Source: Gemmatimonadota bacterium (GTDB lineage Bacteria; Gemmatimonadota; Gemmatimonadetes; Gemmatimonadales; GWC2-71-9). Taken from it: a stretch of DNA of 64,000 nucleotides. The position numbers were made by a program, and so were the translations under genes. Positions 40,154 through 44,653 of the stretch are shown piece by piece (position 1 is the stretch's first letter; each line of letters opens with the position of its first letter). Location of the stretch: the NCBI GenBank assembly GCA_036679645.1, contig JAZDCY010000033.1, positions 13,700-77,699 on the forward strand, in the 5' to 3' direction. Under the pieces are notes generated by a model that was not told where the DNA came from, made no database searches, and saw only the letters and a program-made list of their open reading frames with translations.

Positions 40154-40851
40154 GCTGCACCTCCTTCGACGACGATGGTGCAGCGCAGCGACGCCGCAAG
40201 CTCGTATCCAATGACCTGCTGTATCCCTTCGCGCACGCAGATCGTAACAGGGCCCCGGAAGGGTTTCCGCTCGATCACCTCGAACTCCGCGCCCAGAACC
40301 AACCCGAGTGACGCGATATAGCGCAGTCGCTCCGGATCCTTGTCACTCACCATGCGGAACTCGGCGCACAGGCCGGGGTCGATCTCCGTGAGCGGCACAT
40401 GCGCGGTCTCCTCGATCTCGCCCGATCGGCTGGGAATGGGCGCACCGTGCGGATCGTGCTGCGGATCGCCGAGAACGCGGACCATGCGTTCGATCAACTC
40501 GTCCGAGACTGCATGCTCCAAGCGTTCCGCCTCTTCGTGGACGGAGTCCCAATCGTATCCGAGTTGCGAGGTCAGATAGGACTCGAGCACGCGGTGACGC
40601 CGCACAATGCGCAGCGCGGCTGTGCGTCCCGGCAACGTCAATTGGACGCCACGGTAGGGGACATGCTCCAGCAATCGCGCCTCGGCCAGGCGCTTGAGCA
40701 TGCCGGAGACCGACGCGGGCGCGACCTCGAGCGCCTCCGCGATCGCACTCGTCTGCACGGGGCCACCTTCGGCCCCGAGGGCGTAGATCGCCTTGAGGTA
40801 GTCCTCGGTCGATCGCGACAGACCGGCTGGAGCTGCTGCAGCTGCACCCAT
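40150..40851 (-). CDS. mntR: DtxR/MntR metal-dependent regulator with FeoA domain
   Basis: EDYLKAIY, RRHR..E, EAERLEH, DPHG.PIP. Confidence 0.92.
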   Translation of the reverse strand: MGAAAAAPAGLSRSTEDYLKAIYALGAEGGPVQTSAIAEALEVAPASVSGMLKRLAEARLLEHVPYRGVQLTLPGRTAALRIVRRHRVLESYLTSQLGYDWDSVHEEAERLEHAVSDELIERMVRVLGDPQHDPHGAPIPSRSGEIEETAHVPLTEIDPGLCAEFRMVSDKDPERLRYIASLGLVLGAEFEVIERKPFRGPVTICVREGIQQVIGYELAASLRCTIVVEGGAA

Positions 40852-40873
40852 GACACATCCGTCCCGGGAGAAA

Positions 40874-40887
40874 TTAGGTAAGACTAA
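40874..40887. promoter_or_regulatory. DtxR/MntR-type operator
   Basis: TTAGGTAAGACTAA palindrome just upstream of mntR. Confidence 0.7.
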
Positions 40888-40928
40888 AAATGTTTCGTGA
40901 CGTGCCGAAAAGCAAGGGAATTATGTAC

Positions 40929-40957
40929 TTGACGTAAACCGTTGGTAGTGTTATATT
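40929..40957 (+). promoter_or_regulatory. Sigma70 promoter in the left end (transposase)
   Basis: TTGACG-17-TATATT. Confidence 0.7.
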
Positions 40958-40986
40958 TCGTCAGGTAAAAAGATAGGAACCTGACG

Positions 40987-41982
40987 ATGACCCGCATAGC
41001 CGGAGACAAGGACCCCATAACTACCGCCCTCCCAAAGGCTTGCGTTGACGAGCGGATGGCGATGGACTTCCTAGAGACCCTGATCTGGGGCTACGAGCCC
41101 GCCTGCCCCCGCTGTGGCGATCTGGACGTGTACCCGATGAAGGAACGCAAGACCGGGGAACGTCAGGCCAACGGGCGTTGGCGCTGTCGGGGCTGCAAGC
41201 AGCAGTACACGGTGCGGACGGGCACCATCATGGAGGACTCTCGCATCCCGCTCAAGTATTGGTGTTTTGCGTTCTGGCGGGCGTGCAGCTCGAAGAAGGG
41301 CGTGAGCGCCCTCCAGATCAAACGCGAGACTGGCTTGAGCTACAAGAGCGCCTTGTTCCTGATGCACCGGATTCGCTACGCGATGAGTGGCGGCCCCGAC
41401 CGTCCGTTGCGGGGGACCGTGGAGGTAGATGAGACCTACGTGGGCGGGAAGCCCCGTCGCCACACGCGGAAGCAGAACCGCCGCCCCGGCGAGAACCCAA
41501 ACGTCCAGGGCCGCGCCCCGGACTTCCAGGATCGCAAGACGCCCGTAGTCGCCTTGGTCGAGCGAGGCGGGCCCGCGAAGGCGATCTCGCCAGGGGACGA
41601 ACACGTCACCGGCAAGAACCTCAAGCGGATCATGAGAGAAACCGTGGACCCGTCAGCGACGATCATGACGGACGAGTCCGGCGTCTATCGCGGGATCGGT
41701 CGCCACTTCGAGGGCGGACATTACACCGTCCGGCACTCGATCGGCGAGTACGTCCGGGGCGACGTGACCACCAACACGGTCGAGGGGTTCTTCTCACTCT
41801 TGAAGCGGGGTGTTGTTGGGACGTTTCACCACCTCAGTCGGAAGCACCTGGGGCGGTACGTCAGCGAGTTCGAGTTTAGGTACAACCATCGCAAGGTGAG
41901 TGACGGGGTGCGGACGGTGGCGGCGATCCGGGCGGGGATGAAGAAGCGGCTCACTTACGCCGACCATCTAGCGAGTGTATGA
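40987..41982 (+). CDS. IS1595 (ISXO2-like) DDE transposase
   Basis: Zn ribbon CPRC/CRGC; VEVDETYVGG, IMTDE, TNTVEG, EF.FRYN. Confidence 0.95.
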   Translation: MTRIAGDKDPITTALPKACVDERMAMDFLETLIWGYEPACPRCGDLDVYPMKERKTGERQANGRWRCRGCKQQYTVRTGTIMEDSRIPLKYWCFAFWRACSSKKGVSALQIKRETGLSYKSALFLMHRIRYAMSGGPDRPLRGTVEVDETYVGGKPRRHTRKQNRRPGENPNVQGRAPDFQDRKTPVVALVERGGPAKAISPGDEHVTGKNLKRIMRETVDPSATIMTDESGVYRGIGRHFEGGHYTVRHSIGEYVRGDVTTNTVEGFFSLLKRGVVGTFHHLSRKHLGRYVSEFEFRYNHRKVSDGVRTVAAIRAGMKKRLTYADHLASV

Positions 41983-42014
41983 ACAGTGGAGAACGAGACC
42001 TAGCGGAGGGACCT

Positions 42015-42260
42015 ATGGCGGAGAAGCCGAACGGGGAGAGCATCCGGTTGCGCGAGCAGATCATCGAGGATGAGGTCTCCGGTTTGACGATCCAGATCGA
42101 GCGTACCCCGAATGGCGAGGGGCGGGTCCGGCTGTTCGGCAACATCCCGTTCCGTCATCGCGATTTCGCCTTTGATCGCGACGGGAGATTGGTGGGAACG
42201 GGAACTGGCACATGTTCAACATGTGCCAGCCCCACGTCATGGTTGAAGGTGGTGGACTAG
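42015..42260 (+). CDS. Hypothetical passenger protein
   Basis: GGAGGGG RBS; an in-frame ATG at 41979 overlaps the transposase stop; C-terminal CSTC. Confidence 0.6.
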   Translation: MAEKPNGESIRLREQIIEDEVSGLTIQIERTPNGEGRVRLFGNIPFRHRDFAFDRDGRLVGTGTGTCSTCASPTSWLKVVD

Positions 42261-42556
42261 GGCGTCACGTCGTTGCACGCTGGCAACCGACCGTGACCGT
42301 TGTAGTACTCTTGTAGAAGCTCTCGCTCGCGCCCGAGTGGGGCGGCGTTCACTTCCGTCTTGAAGAATTGGGCTCGCTGTGTGCACGGGCCCTCGTTCCC
42401 CGCGTAGTGACTACGGAGGCGATCACGAATACTGATCGTCGAACTGCCGTAGTAGATGATGTCGGGCATCGTATCGAGCTGATAGACGCCCGGTTGTGCC
42501 GGTGCGCCTTCTATGCGCTCCGGAGTGAAACTCTGGTAATCGCCTTGAATCGGCAT
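42257..42556 (-). CDS. Small standalone GIY-YIG nuclease-like protein
   Basis: PGVY, IIYYG, IRDRL..H, RERELL, P.CN; GGGAGG RBS. Confidence 0.8.
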   Translation of the reverse strand: MPIQGDYQSFTPERIEGAPAQPGVYQLDTMPDIIYYGSSTISIRDRLRSHYAGNEGPCTQRAQFFKTEVNAAPLGRERELLQEYYNGHGRLPACNDVTP

Positions 42557-42598
42557 AAGCCGGATCCTCCCTTGGTGACATTTTTCACATTGTCAGAA

Positions 42599-42639
42599 GG
42601 GGGACTCGCCCATATATTAGTCAGCTTGGCGAGTCCCCC
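42599..42639 (-). terminator. Strong hairpin directly after the tRNA CCA
   Basis: gggggactcgcc / ggcgagtccccc; only a weak U tract. Confidence 0.55.
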
Positions 42640-42744
42640 TGGTGCGCCTGACGGGACTCGAACCCGCACGGGGTGTATCAGCCTACACAGCGGCACCCCA
42701 CTGGCTCCCAAGGCCAGCGTGTCTACCGGTTCCACCACAGACGC
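42640..42744 (-). tRNA. Atypical tRNA: Leu-type body, TGG (Pro) anticodon, very long variable arm
   Basis: GCGTCTG/CAGGCGC, A73, encoded CCA; D arm GTGGAACCGGTAGACAC; CTGGC-CTTGGGA-GCCAG; T arm GCGGG-TTCGAGT-CCCGT. Confidence 0.85.
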
Positions 42745-42795
42745 GAGCGGGGATGGCCGGAGGGCCCGAAGGCCCCCGGCCGCTAGGTCAGGGGG

Positions 42796-42807
42796 TTATG
42801 GCGGCAT
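42796..42807 (-). CDS. Candidate minigene Met-Pro-Pro-stop
   Basis: GAGGAGG-6 nt-ATG CCG CCA TAA. Confidence 0.55.
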   Translation of the reverse strand: MPP

Positions 42808-42894
42808 GGCAGACCTCCTCATGTATCGGCGGCGGTTTCGGAGCGATCTTGCCAAAGAAGATCCGAGACCGCCGCCTCGTTATTGGGGTTAGAA

Positions 42895-43323
42895 CTAGAA
42901 CGGAACGTCCTTCGGTTGATCGTCCTCGGCGCTCCACTCTGCTAGCCCATACCAGCCCCGTTTCGGGCTGCTAAAAACATCATCACGTCGCCTTAACGCA
43001 GACACAAGCGAACCCCTGATCTTGTCTGCGGCCTCGTCCGCTCGATACCCACGTCGTTGCATCTCCGCGATCAACCCTTGAATACGAACAATTTTCCCAA
43101 GTTCCTTGAGAACGGTCTGCGCTTGGCTGACGAGTTCACTTGACCGCGCCCGCCGCCGTTTCGGCGTCCCGTTAGTGCTCGGCATATCGTCGCCAAAAAG
43201 CTCTATGTGTTGCTCAAGCCCGGCGATCAGAGTTAGTATAGATTTGCGCCTTCGATCAATCTGGGTCAGTTCCCGTTTGAGGCGCTTAAGAGTCACGCGG
43301 TAGCTTTTTGTGTGATCCGTCAT
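42895..43323 (-). CDS. Coiled-coil plus winged-helix (HARE-HTH-like) protein
   Basis: N-terminal coiled coil; C-terminal ..F....RGWYGL.EW; TTGATC-16-TATCTT just upstream suggests a leaderless start. Confidence 0.7.
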   Translation of the reverse strand: MTDHTKSYRVTLKRLKRELTQIDRRRKSILTLIAGLEQHIELFGDDMPSTNGTPKRRRARSSELVSQAQTVLKELGKIVRIQGLIAEMQRRGYRADEAADKIRGSLVSALRRRDDVFSSPKRGWYGLAEWSAEDDQPKDVPF

Positions 43324-43345
43324 GCTCAGCAAGATAGCGAGTAAT

Positions 43346-43534
43346 ATGTCAGGATCAAGCGCCACAAACGGACCCGGAGAAGCCGCTGCCAATAAGGACG
43401 AGCGCCCAGGTCCTGACCCTGAGCGGCTCAAAGTCGAGGGGAACTGGAAGGACGCCCTCAGACGGGCTCTCCGAAAGAAGAAGCCAGCGGAGGGATGGCC
43501 GGGAAAAACCGCGAAAAACAAAGGGGCCCCTTAG
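43346..43534 (+). CDS. Small basic hypothetical protein
   Basis: PGPDPERLKVEGNWKDALRRALRKKKPAEGWP; followed by a ggggcccc/ggggcccc hairpin. Confidence 0.6.
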   Translation: MSGSSATNGPGEAAANKDERPGPDPERLKVEGNWKDALRRALRKKKPAEGWPGKTAKNKGAP

Positions 43535-43647
43535 TCGGGGGCCCCAAGAACTACATCAGCTTGCCAAGCCTTAGGAAGGTAGGACCTTCCCCATCTGATA
43601 GCAAGACCATTCGGTGTATCTTCTATTGACAAGCACGGCAGCAGGTG

Positions 43648-43720
43648 GGTGACGAACCGGACTTGAACCGGTTACTTCAGCTTGGCAAGCCGATGTGTTA
43701 CCAGTTACACTACCGCCACC
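43648..43720 (-). tRNA. Atypical tRNA: His-type acceptor (G-1:C73), GCC (Gly) anticodon
   Basis: G-GTGGCGG/TCGTCAC-C; D arm GTGT-AACTGGTA-ACAC; TCGGC-TTGCCAA-GCTGA; T arm ACCGG-TTCAAGT-CCGGT; CCA not encoded. Confidence 0.8.
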
Positions 43721-44010
43721 ACGACGGTTGCCGTACCTCTTCTGGATGCCAACCAAGCGGCGACCGCCTCACCTGTTACTGCCACAAACAATCTACTCGG
43801 GTGGAGCCCTTACTGCAACAACTGCCTGGACCGGCCCCCAGCCTAATCCTACCGAGGGGTGGCCGGGCCCTCGAAATAGAGAGGGGCCGGGCGTTTATCC
43901 CGGCCCCCAGCCCGATTAGTTGGCTAACTGCCCTGCCAGTCGATTATGCTGGCTGACCGACTTCGAGTAAAGCCGATCTAGTTCCTCCGGAGCCAGCGGA
44001 CCGGCCCGCA
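43721..44010 (-). ncRNA. Candidate structured non-coding RNA or tRNA leader
   Basis: No convincing ORF; several GC-rich hairpins; lies downstream of an inward promoter. Confidence 0.4.
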
Positions 44011-44015
44011 CTCCC

Positions 44016-44043
44016 AAGATAACGCCTCACCGCATTTACTCAA
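44016..44043 (-). promoter_or_regulatory. Inward-facing sigma70-like promoter in the right end
   Basis: TTGAGT-16-TATCTT, mirroring the left-end promoter. Confidence 0.5.
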
Positions 44044-44071
44044 GTACACAATTCCCAAAAGCAAGAGCAGG

Positions 44072-44653
44072 TCAGATGCTGCGGAGTAACTCCATGAACG
44101 GAGCGAGGATACGCTCGGTCATCCCCCAAATCAGGTGGGCGCCAACACGGTACCCGGACACGACGAGATCCTGCCCGCGCACGCATACGGTCTCGGTCAC
44201 ACGCGACTCCTCTAGTTCGTCCAGTCCGGCCCAGACGTGCAGCGCGACCTCAGGGCAGGACTGCACGGCGGGCGGACTCGAGAGGCCGAAGACGAAGGGA
44301 CGGACGACGATCTGGGGAAGATGGGGGCTGACCGGGCTGAGATCGCCCAGCTGACCGAGGTAATCAGCGCGCGACAAATCGAGTCCGGTTTCCTCCCGGG
44401 CCTCACGAGCTACGGTGGCGAGAAGATCGGCGTCCGCGGGGTCTCGTCTGCCGCCGGGTAGCGCCATCTGCCCCGACCAGGGATCTCCAAGACGCTCTGT
44501 GCGTTTAATAAAGAGAGCCCGCAAGCCGGCATCGTCGGACGGCACGAGCATGAGCGCAACCGCAGCCTCGCGTAGATCTGGCGTGATTGGGACTTGGCGA
44601 GGCGGCGATACCGACAGCCGGTCACGTATCGCCTCAAATGTGATATTGGTCAC
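44072..44653 (-). CDS. CoA pyrophosphatase (Nudix)
   Basis: AAV.L, SGQMALPGG, REAREETG, IWGMT. Confidence 0.92.
   Translation of the reverse strand: MTNITFEAIRDRLSVSPPRQVPITPDLREAAVALMLVPSDDAGLRALFIKRTERLGDPWSGQMALPGGRRDPADADLLATVAREAREETGLDLSRADYLGQLGDLSPVSPHLPQIVVRPFVFGLSSPPAVQSCPEVALHVWAGLDELEESRVTETVCVRGQDLVVSGYRVGAHLIWGMTERILAPFMELLRSI

What the first reader, a model, noticed from the sequence alone, without database searches (positions are those of the whole stretch)
43648..43720. His-type tRNA with a Gly anticodon
Seen: canonical cloverleaf with G at -1 opposite C73, acceptor starting GTG and loop TTGCCAA. Established: bacterial tRNA-Gly needs U73 and C2-G71, both absent; G-1:C73 is the His hallmark. 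GUG to GCC needs two changes, so a single error cannot explain it. Inference: His insertion at GGC/GGU codons, or an uncharged decoy.
Basis: partly seen in the sequence, partly recalled or inferred. Interest (0 to 1): 0.8.

Follow-up and report, generated by a model that had tools for sequence, protein, structure and literature searches.

The report
Miscoding tRNA with its antisense antidote
A jumping gene carries a histidine-type transfer RNA with a glycine anticodon, followed by a predicted small RNA gene whose start is the mirror image of that anticodon arm; the same pairing recurs with ten different anticodons, mostly in related bacteria, so it is likely an undescribed all-RNA poison-and-antidote pair in which the tRNA would put wrong amino acids into proteins.

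Summary
Observation confirmed: minus strand 43720-43648, G-1:C73, loop UUGCCAA; a run contig at depth 107 is identical. The host also has normal His(GUG) and Gly(GCC) tRNAs. (1) The gene is cargo of a 3.1-kb IS1595 element, absent at this site in 4 of 4 relatives. (2) 77 nt downstream, behind a promoter-like site, lies a ~55-nt predicted RNA that starts with 18 nt antisense to the anticodon arm and ends in a terminator. Five Leu-type tRNAs with Ala/Val anticodons in this genome have the same cassette, and each small RNA fits only its own tRNA. Across 33 modules, the antisense triplet exactly complements the anticodon in 32, over ten anticodons. Best reading (0.55): a stable mistranslating tRNA (Gly to His) held in check by a labile anti-anticodon RNA, an RNA-only toxin-antitoxin. 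Against: no expression, charging or toxicity data; most His-type mismatched tRNAs outside this lineage lack the partner; related G-1 tRNAs were charged but did not decode in E. coli. Not found in nine literature searches. This scan noted similar pairs on other DNA (e1-5264216, e1-3622085).

The parts
43648..43720 (-). tRNA with His-type acceptor (G-1:C73, G1U2G3) and GCC (Gly) anticodon; predicted mistranslating effector
43790..43818 (-). Candidate promoter of the tRNA (TTGCAG-17-TAGATT), 69 nt upstream of G-1; weak consensus match, untested
43576..43604 (-). Candidate promoter of the small RNA (TTGCTA-17-TACCTT), ending 5 nt before the antisense stretch
   Evidence: such a site precedes 23 of 33 modules versus 61 of 6258 control positions. 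The built-in scan did not list it (7 of 12 consensus matches).
43515..43572 (-). Predicted small RNA gene of about 55 nt (candidate antitoxin); start and end inferred
   Evidence: no Rfam family at gathering score
43553..43570 (-). 18-nt stretch antisense to the tRNA's anticodon arm, with GGC opposite the anticodon; folds into a mini stem-loop showing that codon
   Evidence: (I6)
43523..43545 (-). Intrinsic terminator hairpin (8 G-C pairs) followed by a T run
40916..44056 (.). IS1595-family element carrying the module (3141 bp)
40916..40932 (+). Left terminal inverted repeat; 8-bp target duplication at 40908-40915
   Evidence: I5
44040..44056 (-). Right terminal inverted repeat; 8-bp target duplication at 44057-44064
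   Evidence: I5
40987..41982 (+). IS1595 transposase (PF12760 + PF12762), single copy in the genome
42640..42744 (-). Second mismatched tRNA: Leu-type body (A73, long variable arm, encoded CCA) with UGG (Pro) anticodon; no antisense partner found
42895..43521 (-). Passenger ORF with weak HARE-HTH match (E 0.037); true start probably near 43323
42257..42556 (-). Passenger ORF, GIY-YIG/DUF7508-like (E 2e-4, below cut-off)
43322..43534 (+). Small passenger ORF (70 aa), no Pfam or PADLOC match
41979..42260 (+). Small passenger ORF (93 aa), no Pfam or PADLOC match

Best explanation
The gene is one half of a two-gene RNA module, a His-type tRNA with a Gly anticodon followed by a predicted small RNA that is antisense to its anticodon arm, and it likely works as an RNA-only toxin-antitoxin pair in which the tRNA would put histidine at GGC/GGU codons unless the small RNA masks it. 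Shown by sequence: the tRNA, the 18-nt complement, the terminator, the IS1595 context, the covariation and the cognate specificity across relatives. Inferred steps: (1) RNase P keeps G-1 and CCA is added; (2) host HisRS charges it through G-1:C73; (3) it decodes GGC/GGU (5.4% of host codons) and poisons the proteome; (4) the small RNA, made from its own promoter, opens the anticodon arm by a loop-loop contact and blocks decoding or triggers decay; read-through precursor may also fold back on the same stretch in cis; (5) because tRNA is stable and the small RNA presumably labile, loss of the element or a transcription block (for example by phage) would release the toxin, giving addiction or abortive infection.
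For: Own genome: of 47 Rfam tRNAs, the six longest downstream antisense runs (14-18 nt) belong to this tRNA and five Leu-type tRNAs with Ala/Val anticodons; the 39 canonical tRNAs reach 13 once and otherwise at most 10. The 6x6 duplex matrix is diagonal: own -26 to -40, cross no better than -21.4 kcal/mol. Net binding of the small RNA is -18.9 to its own tRNA and -7.8 to host tRNA-Gly(GCC). Unselected Leu-type set: 16 of 17 pattern hits in 10 of 401 phylum genomes have a run of 12 or more (12 of 13 outside this genome); 0 of 8 testable canonical Leu tRNAs exceed 10. His-type set in GTDB: 6 of 31 testable tRNAs with two or more anticodon changes versus 0 of 39 GUG controls; 5 of 6 testable non-GUG hits titled Gemmatimonadota are positive. 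The triplet opposite the anticodon is the exact complement in 32 of 33 modules over 10 anticodons; a promoter-like site precedes it in 23 of 33 versus about 1% of controls. Both bodies are served by synthetases that ignore or weakly read the anticodon (PMC9976931). Eight of the ten anticodons read codons ranked 1-17 in host usage; GGC is rank 6. Mismatched tRNAs arrest or kill E. coli (PMC5389517; PMC10404621). Distribution is patchy with several non-cross-reacting copies per genome and varied neighbours.
Against: No expression, processing, charging, decoding or toxicity data. In PMC5389517 section 16 two G-1 tRNAs with a GGU anticodon were histidylated in vitro but inserted no His at an ACC codon in E. 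coli, and their charging may have used a shifted GUG that this tRNA lacks. The HisRS anticodon domain matters in vivo. Most His-type mismatched tRNAs lack the partner: only 10 of 84 testable metagenome rows have it (one duplicate, one doubtful), and none of the 11 loci beside an IS1595 transposase does, so such tRNAs can persist without this antidote; 33 of 74 negatives have three or fewer anticodon-stem pairs, but 21 have five. The second odd tRNA of this element has no partner. Cognate duplex was best in only 28 of 33 in the all-against-all test. Many Leu-type members have C33 or G32, and this tRNA has A15/A48, which could weaken decoding. The 33 modules include close kin; 13 His-type ones were picked for having the antisense; the promoter pattern was relaxed after seeing the data. 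No GCC His-type relative was found (0 of 89 GTDB rows).
Confidence: 0.55

Rival explanations
1. The tRNA is charged or bound by host factors but does not decode. It acts as a decoy (for HisRS, EF-Tu, an anticodon nuclease or a phage factor), and the small RNA switches the decoy off.
For: G-1 tRNAs with GGU were charged but inactive in decoding in E. coli. Many His-type relatives have broken anticodon stems and no partner.
Against: A decoy for a synthetase needs no particular anticodon, yet partner-bearing modules keep mostly intact stems and use anticodons for common codons. All other canonical features (U33, purine 37, T and D loops) are kept here.
Confidence: 0.15
2. Regulated, beneficial mistranslation: the small RNA is a stress-responsive switch that allows a low dose of Gly-to-His miscoding, with no addiction or killing.
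For: tRNAProX mistranslation changes antibiotic tolerance in E. coli (PMC10404621). Non-U33 loops may attenuate decoding (PMC11415595).
Against: Patchy presence, carriage on an IS and six orthogonal pairs in one genome look selfish rather than physiological. No dedicated synthetase among 74 neighbouring ORFs.
Confidence: 0.12
3. The antisense stretch works only in cis, as part of the pre-tRNA trailer that misfolds the precursor until it is trimmed; there is no separate small RNA.
For: No terminator lies between tRNA and antisense, and the predicted precursor fold pairs them.
Against: A promoter-like site sits 2-10 nt before the antisense in 23 of 33 modules versus about 1% of controls, while the spacer varies from 40 to 125 nt.
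Confidence: 0.08
4. Roles are reversed: the small RNA is the toxin that masks host tRNA-Gly(GCC), and the odd tRNA is a sponge.
For: Host tRNA-Gly(GCC) is the small RNA's second-best target in the genome. CreT toxins are small RNAs that sequester tRNAs (PMC8501985, abstract).
Against: Binding to the host tRNA is much weaker (-7.8 versus -18.9). Complementarity follows the private stem and D-arm letters of the odd tRNA. A stable antidote with a labile toxin gives no addiction (inference).
Confidence: 0.05
5. A decayed tRNA pseudogene, an assembly artefact or an ordinary extra tRNA-Gly, with a chance inverted repeat.
For: Wobble pairs, A15/A48, no CCA gene end; Gly-type anticodon loop and short variable loop.
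Against: Identical at depth 107; Gly determinants U73 and C2-G71 missing; antisense covaries with the anticodon in 32 of 33 modules and is absent from controls.
Confidence: 0.05

Closest known systems
Allo-tRNAs and G-1 'tRNA1' species (Mukai et al., PMC5389517; passages, section 16 and supplement search seen; review PMC7609411, passages)
   Same: Identity-anticodon mismatch; His-type G-1 members with GGU; found near transposons and toxin-antitoxin genes; allo-tRNA expression killed E. coli.
   Different: Those have 8/4 or 9/3 branches or occur in polycistrons; this one is a standard 7/5 plus G-1. 'Antisense' and 'complementary' occur 0 times in that paper's text and supplement; no partner RNA is described.
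tRNAProX family (PMC10404621, passages)
   Same: Natural bacterial mistranslating tRNA family with one identity and several anticodons; toxic in E. coli.
   Different: Pro identity, encoded beside a dedicated ProRSx; 'antisense' occurs 0 times. Here His or Leu identity, no synthetase nearby, and an antisense RNA.
Type VIII RNA-RNA toxin-antitoxin systems: CreTA (PMC8501985, abstract) and SdsR/RyeA (recalled)
   Same: Toxin and antitoxin would both be RNA; translation is the target.
   Different: CreT is a mini-mRNA that sequesters rare tRNAs and CreA represses its transcription through Cascade. SdsR is a regulatory sRNA with an overlapping opposite-strand antisense (recalled). In neither is the toxin a tRNA.
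Type I hok/sok-like modules (recalled)
   Same: Short antisense RNA with an unstructured 5' target region and a terminator; possible fold-back inhibition in the precursor; cognate specificity among copies.
   Different: The toxin is a protein and the antisense blocks an mRNA; here the target is an anticodon arm and both genes lie in tandem on one strand.
IS1595-family transposons with passenger genes (PF12762, PF12760)
   Same: Transposase, 17-bp inverted repeats, 8-bp target duplication, passenger ORFs.
   Different: Cargo includes two identity-mismatched tRNAs and the small RNA; one search listed no paper on such cargo.

Membership tests
Bacterial tRNA-His identity | Encoded G-1 opposite C73 | tested here: met
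   same ends as host tRNA-His
Bacterial tRNA-His identity | GUG anticodon | tested here: not met
   GCC
Bacterial tRNA-His identity | G-1 retained in the mature RNA and histidylation by HisRS | not testable with these tools
   needs 5' mapping and charging assay
Bacterial tRNA-Gly identity | C35, C36, G1-C72 | tested here: met
   set from PMC9976931
Bacterial tRNA-Gly identity | U73 and C2-G71 | tested here: not met
   C73 and U2-A71
Allo-tRNA | 8/4 or 9/3 acceptor/T-stem branch | tested here: not met
   7/5 fit to RF00005
tRNAProX | Pro identity and adjacent ProRSx gene | tested here: not met
   His-type ends; no synthetase in the element or among 74 neighbouring ORFs of relatives
Type VIII (RNA-RNA) toxin-antitoxin | Two adjacent RNA genes with cognate base pairing | tested here: met
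   sequence level only:
Type VIII (RNA-RNA) toxin-antitoxin | Toxin RNA inhibits growth; antitoxin RNA neutralises it and is less stable | not testable with these tools
   no expression or growth data
CreTA | CRISPR-repeat-like antitoxin and adjacent type I cas genes | tested here: not met
   no cas gene in the element; no CRISPR Rfam match in 43400-44060
IS1595 family | ISXO2-like DDE transposase with zinc ribbon | tested here: met
   PF12762 E 1e-37, PF12760 E 3e-10
IS1595 family | Terminal inverted repeats, target duplication, empty site in relatives | tested here: met
   mntR-like and Nudix genes adjacent in 4 of 4 relatives

The most novel reading that the evidence does not exclude
A family of selfish, protein-free toxin-antitoxin modules in which the toxin is a tRNA that rewrites the genetic code (His or Leu at Gly, Ala, Val, Thr, Ile or Ser codons) and the antitoxin is a dedicated anti-anticodon RNA; new specificities arise by coupled change of anticodon and anti-anticodon, so one genome can stack several orthogonal pairs, and transcription shut-off by a phage would trigger proteome-wide miscoding.
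Probability: 0.5. Interest if true: 0.95.

Novelty: categorically new. Interest (0 to 1): 0.85.

Why it matters
Identity-mismatched bacterial tRNAs have been reported since 2017 (allo-tRNAs, tRNAProX), they are toxic when expressed, and how cells tolerate them and why they sit near mobile DNA is open. A dedicated antisense partner gives a direct, cheap test. If right, a tRNA is itself the toxin of a toxin-antitoxin system and a small RNA controls a tRNA by its anticodon. In formal terms it would fall under RNA-RNA (type VIII) systems, but I found no precedent for either half in that role. It also means tRNA annotations by anticodon are wrong for these genes, and it offers orthogonal, protein-free switches for controlled mistranslation or biocontainment.

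Tried and rejected
DNA search with the 226-nt module found no match in 100 relatives; plasmid blastn gave one weak 61-nt tRNA-like hit; the Leu-type pattern gave 0 viral contigs. No RNA holder was listed among sequencing runs; this is no evidence on expression. The first viral pattern was off by one and returned mostly canonical His tRNAs (113 of 120 parsed rows); it was replaced. The anticodon column was offset by two and was corrected. An inhibitory leader pairing with the tRNA 5' half was rejected: z below -2 in 0 of 14 His-type, 2 of 21 Leu-type and 2 of 39 canonical tRNAs. No convincing partner for the Leu-type UGG tRNA in the element (best runs need 2-5 G:U pairs). L190 (GAG, run 14) was dropped from the module set because it shows no promoter or terminator and differs from GUG by one base; L247 was dropped for a broken anticodon stem; L231, L265 and L285 repeat sequences already counted; L310, L316 and L321 are interrupted by an insertion; L318 and L168 have too little downstream DNA. 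The class-wide His-type search (3 of 401 genomes) added no new module. PADLOC found nothing in 4 passenger ORFs. The idea that the antisense stretch is the IS end was rejected once the true inverted repeats were found. A look-up of earlier findings by sequence was empty. Literature searches listed no tRNA plus anti-anticodon RNA module; the library lacks most subscription papers, and bioRxiv supplements were closed.

Full report
Observation. The gene is real and lies on the minus strand, G-1 at 43720 to C73 at 43648. ARAGORN names it tRNA-Gly(GCC) and Rfam scores 57.1 bits with all four stems paired. It has G-1:C73, G1-C72, U2-A71, G3-C70 and the loop UUGCCAA. It lacks U73 and C2-G71, which with G1-C72, C35 and C36 form the bacterial Gly set; G-1:C73 is the major His element and the anticodon a weaker one (PMC9976931, PMC4357726, PMC3064791, passages). 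It has two G:U pairs in the acceptor, A15/A48 and no encoded CCA. A run contig at depth 107 is identical over 40700-44300 (probably the source sample). The host has canonical His(GUG) with G-1/C73 and canonical Gly(GCC) genes and one HisRS above the TIGR00442 cut-off.

Context. The tRNA lies inside an IS1595 element: transposase at 40987-41982, inverted repeats at 40916-40932 and 44040-44056, an 8-bp target duplication on both sides, and an empty site in 4 of 4 relatives, where the mntR-like and Nudix genes are neighbours. The element also carries four small ORFs and a second mismatched tRNA, a Leu-type body with a UGG anticodon at 42744-42640.

The partner gene. Seventy-seven nt after C73 starts an 18-nt stretch (43570-43553) complementary to the tRNA's anticodon arm, with GGC opposite GCC. 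A TTGCTA-17-TACCTT site ends 5 nt before it and a terminator follows at 43545-43523. The predicted ~55-nt RNA folds a mini stem-loop that displays the GGC codon; net binding is -18.9 kcal/mol to this tRNA and -7.8 to host tRNA-Gly(GCC), the next best. No Rfam family matches it at gathering score.

The same cassette in this genome. Of 47 Rfam tRNAs, eight are odd. Six of the eight, this one and five Leu-type bodies with GGC, GGC, CGC, GAC and GAC anticodons, have the six longest downstream antisense runs (14-18 nt). The 39 canonical tRNAs reach 13 once and otherwise at most 10. The two odd tRNAs without a partner are the UGG one in this element and one with a malformed loop. The six small RNAs are orthogonal: own duplexes -26 to -40, cross duplexes no better than -21.4.

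Relatives. A pattern for His-type ends with non-GUG anticodons gave 89 GTDB rows; 82 were well formed. None of 39 that proved to be GUG has a run of 13 or more over the anticodon; 6 of 31 testable ones with two or more anticodon changes do, five titled Gemmatimonadota and one Acidimicrobiia. The pattern could not see anticodons with U at 34 or 35. In metagenomes 10 of 84 testable rows are positive, one a duplicate and one doubtful. A pattern for the Leu-type body, blind to anticodon and downstream DNA, gave 17 hits in 10 of 401 phylum genomes; 16 have a run of 12 or more, and the one that fails has a shortened variable arm; 0 of 8 testable canonical Leu tRNAs exceed 10. In 35 loci examined together (14 His-type, 13 of them chosen for the antisense; 21 Leu-type, four of them added by hand), 33 have the run; the triplet opposite the anticodon is the exact complement in 32 (the other has a G:U) over GCC, GGC, CGC, AGC, GAC, CAC, GGU, CGU, GAU and GGA; a promoter-like site lies 2-10 nt upstream in 23 of 33 against 61 of 6258 control positions; by inspection of the folds each ends in a strong hairpin, and many carry a second block resembling the reverse complement of the D arm. 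Kin are included, so these are not 33 independent events, but different stems and anticodons are each tracked by their own antisense. Neighbours vary; a few are toxin-antitoxin-type genes, most are ordinary, none is a synthetase (74 ORFs).

How it likely works. Both bodies belong to synthetases that ignore (LeuRS) or weakly read (HisRS) the anticodon, the anticodons read codons for small or beta-branched residues, and eight of ten read codons ranked 1-17 in the host; GGC is rank 6 and GGC+GGU are 5.37% of codons in 1315 long ORFs. Mismatched tRNAs arrest or kill E. coli (PMC5389517; PMC10404621). A gene whose product tracks the anticodon base for base is most simply an inhibitor of that tRNA. 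A stable toxic tRNA with a short antisense RNA fits toxin-antitoxin logic, as do the patchy distribution, the orthogonal copies and carriage on an IS. I give this 0.55. The two-gene module itself I regard as nearly certain; every functional step is inferred.

Evidence against. Two G-1 tRNAs with GGU were histidylated but inserted no His in E. coli. The HisRS anticodon domain matters in vivo. Most His-type mismatched tRNAs, chiefly Thr anticodons (68 of 89 metagenome rows), have no partner; 33 of 74 such negatives have weak anticodon stems but 21 have perfect ones. Eleven such loci lie beside an IS1595 transposase, none with the partner and none GUG, so IS carriage and the partner are separable and this locus is the only one seen with both. 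Cognate pairing was best in 28 of 33 in the all-against-all test. No His-type tRNA with GCC was found elsewhere, although a Leu-type GCC tRNA with the same loop and its own antisense exists (L323). A leader-based inhibition idea failed its test.

Comparison with what is known. The tRNA half works like allo-tRNAs, G-1 tRNA1 and tRNAProX but fails their membership tests (branch geometry, Pro identity, dedicated synthetase). The pair resembles RNA-RNA toxin-antitoxin systems, but CreT is a tRNA-sequestering mini-mRNA repressed through Cascade (PMC8501985, abstract), and hok/sok and SdsR/RyeA (recalled) do not use a tRNA. Nine searches listed no such module; 'antisense' is absent from PMC5389517 (text and supplement), PMC7609411, PMC10404621 and PMC11415595. 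Subscription papers and bioRxiv supplements were out of reach. Earlier notes of this scan describe tRNA-like RNA plus anti-anticodon RNA pairs in Thermoleophilia (e1-5264216) and an Anaerolineales prophage (e1-3622085); I had formed my reading before seeing them and did not check them.

Verdict. Observation confirmed, interpretation partly supported, and the larger finding is the two-gene module. Interest 0.85; novelty categorically new for the module, with the caveat that it would be filed under type VIII if toxicity and rescue are shown.

Noticed in passing
window 42640-42744 (-): Leu-type tRNA with UGG (Pro) anticodon and an unusually large variable-arm loop (18 nt), missed by ARAGORN, followed by a hairpin; no antisense partner found.
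   Followed up: partly
G000 C7:211523-211606, C11:12622-12705, C32:56781-56864, C47:755-838, C59:8763-8847: Five Leu-type tRNAs with Ala or Val anticodons, each with its own promoter-like site, antisense stretch and terminator; annotators would call them tRNA-Ala or tRNA-Val.
   Followed up: yes
L137, L252, L230, L306, L008, L223, L242: His-type tRNAs with Thr or Ser anticodons, most beside an IS1595 transposase, without antisense partner; several are followed by a terminator and a small ORF that looks by eye like a ribbon-helix-helix regulator (not tested), a possible protein repressor.
   Followed up: partly
L202 1502-1668 (tRNA orientation): His-type tRNA with UGG followed by a second odd tRNA (GGC), next to an IS1595 transposase.
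   Followed up: no
L144: Closest relative of this tRNA (score 51 of 73) has GAU; its downstream promoter-terminator unit seems to match only D-arm pieces and not the anticodon.
   Followed up: partly
L310, L316, L321 (G103): Three class II tRNA genes, two odd and one near-canonical Leu, are cut in the T arm by the same inserted sequence.
   Followed up: no
L152, L203, L280: A 14-18 nt same-strand repeat of the anticodon arm lies 100-170 nt from the tRNA; it would be an antisense RNA if read from the opposite strand.
   Followed up: no
GTDB rows, e.g. L130, L149, L164, L197: Many His(GUG) tRNAs have C, A or G in place of U33.
   Followed up: no
G000 C9, downstream of tRNA-Gly(GCC) at 139620-139692 (-): Repeated 5' fragments of the initiator tRNA-Met in a short tandem array before the intact gene.
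   Followed up: no
G000 C7:130361-130442 (-): Leu(CAA)-like body with a malformed anticodon loop and no antisense partner; possibly a pseudogene.
   Followed up: partly
L348 1465-2754 (-): Host HisRS has a motif 2 loop reading RQQRGR; its fit to C73 recognition was not tested.
   Followed up: no
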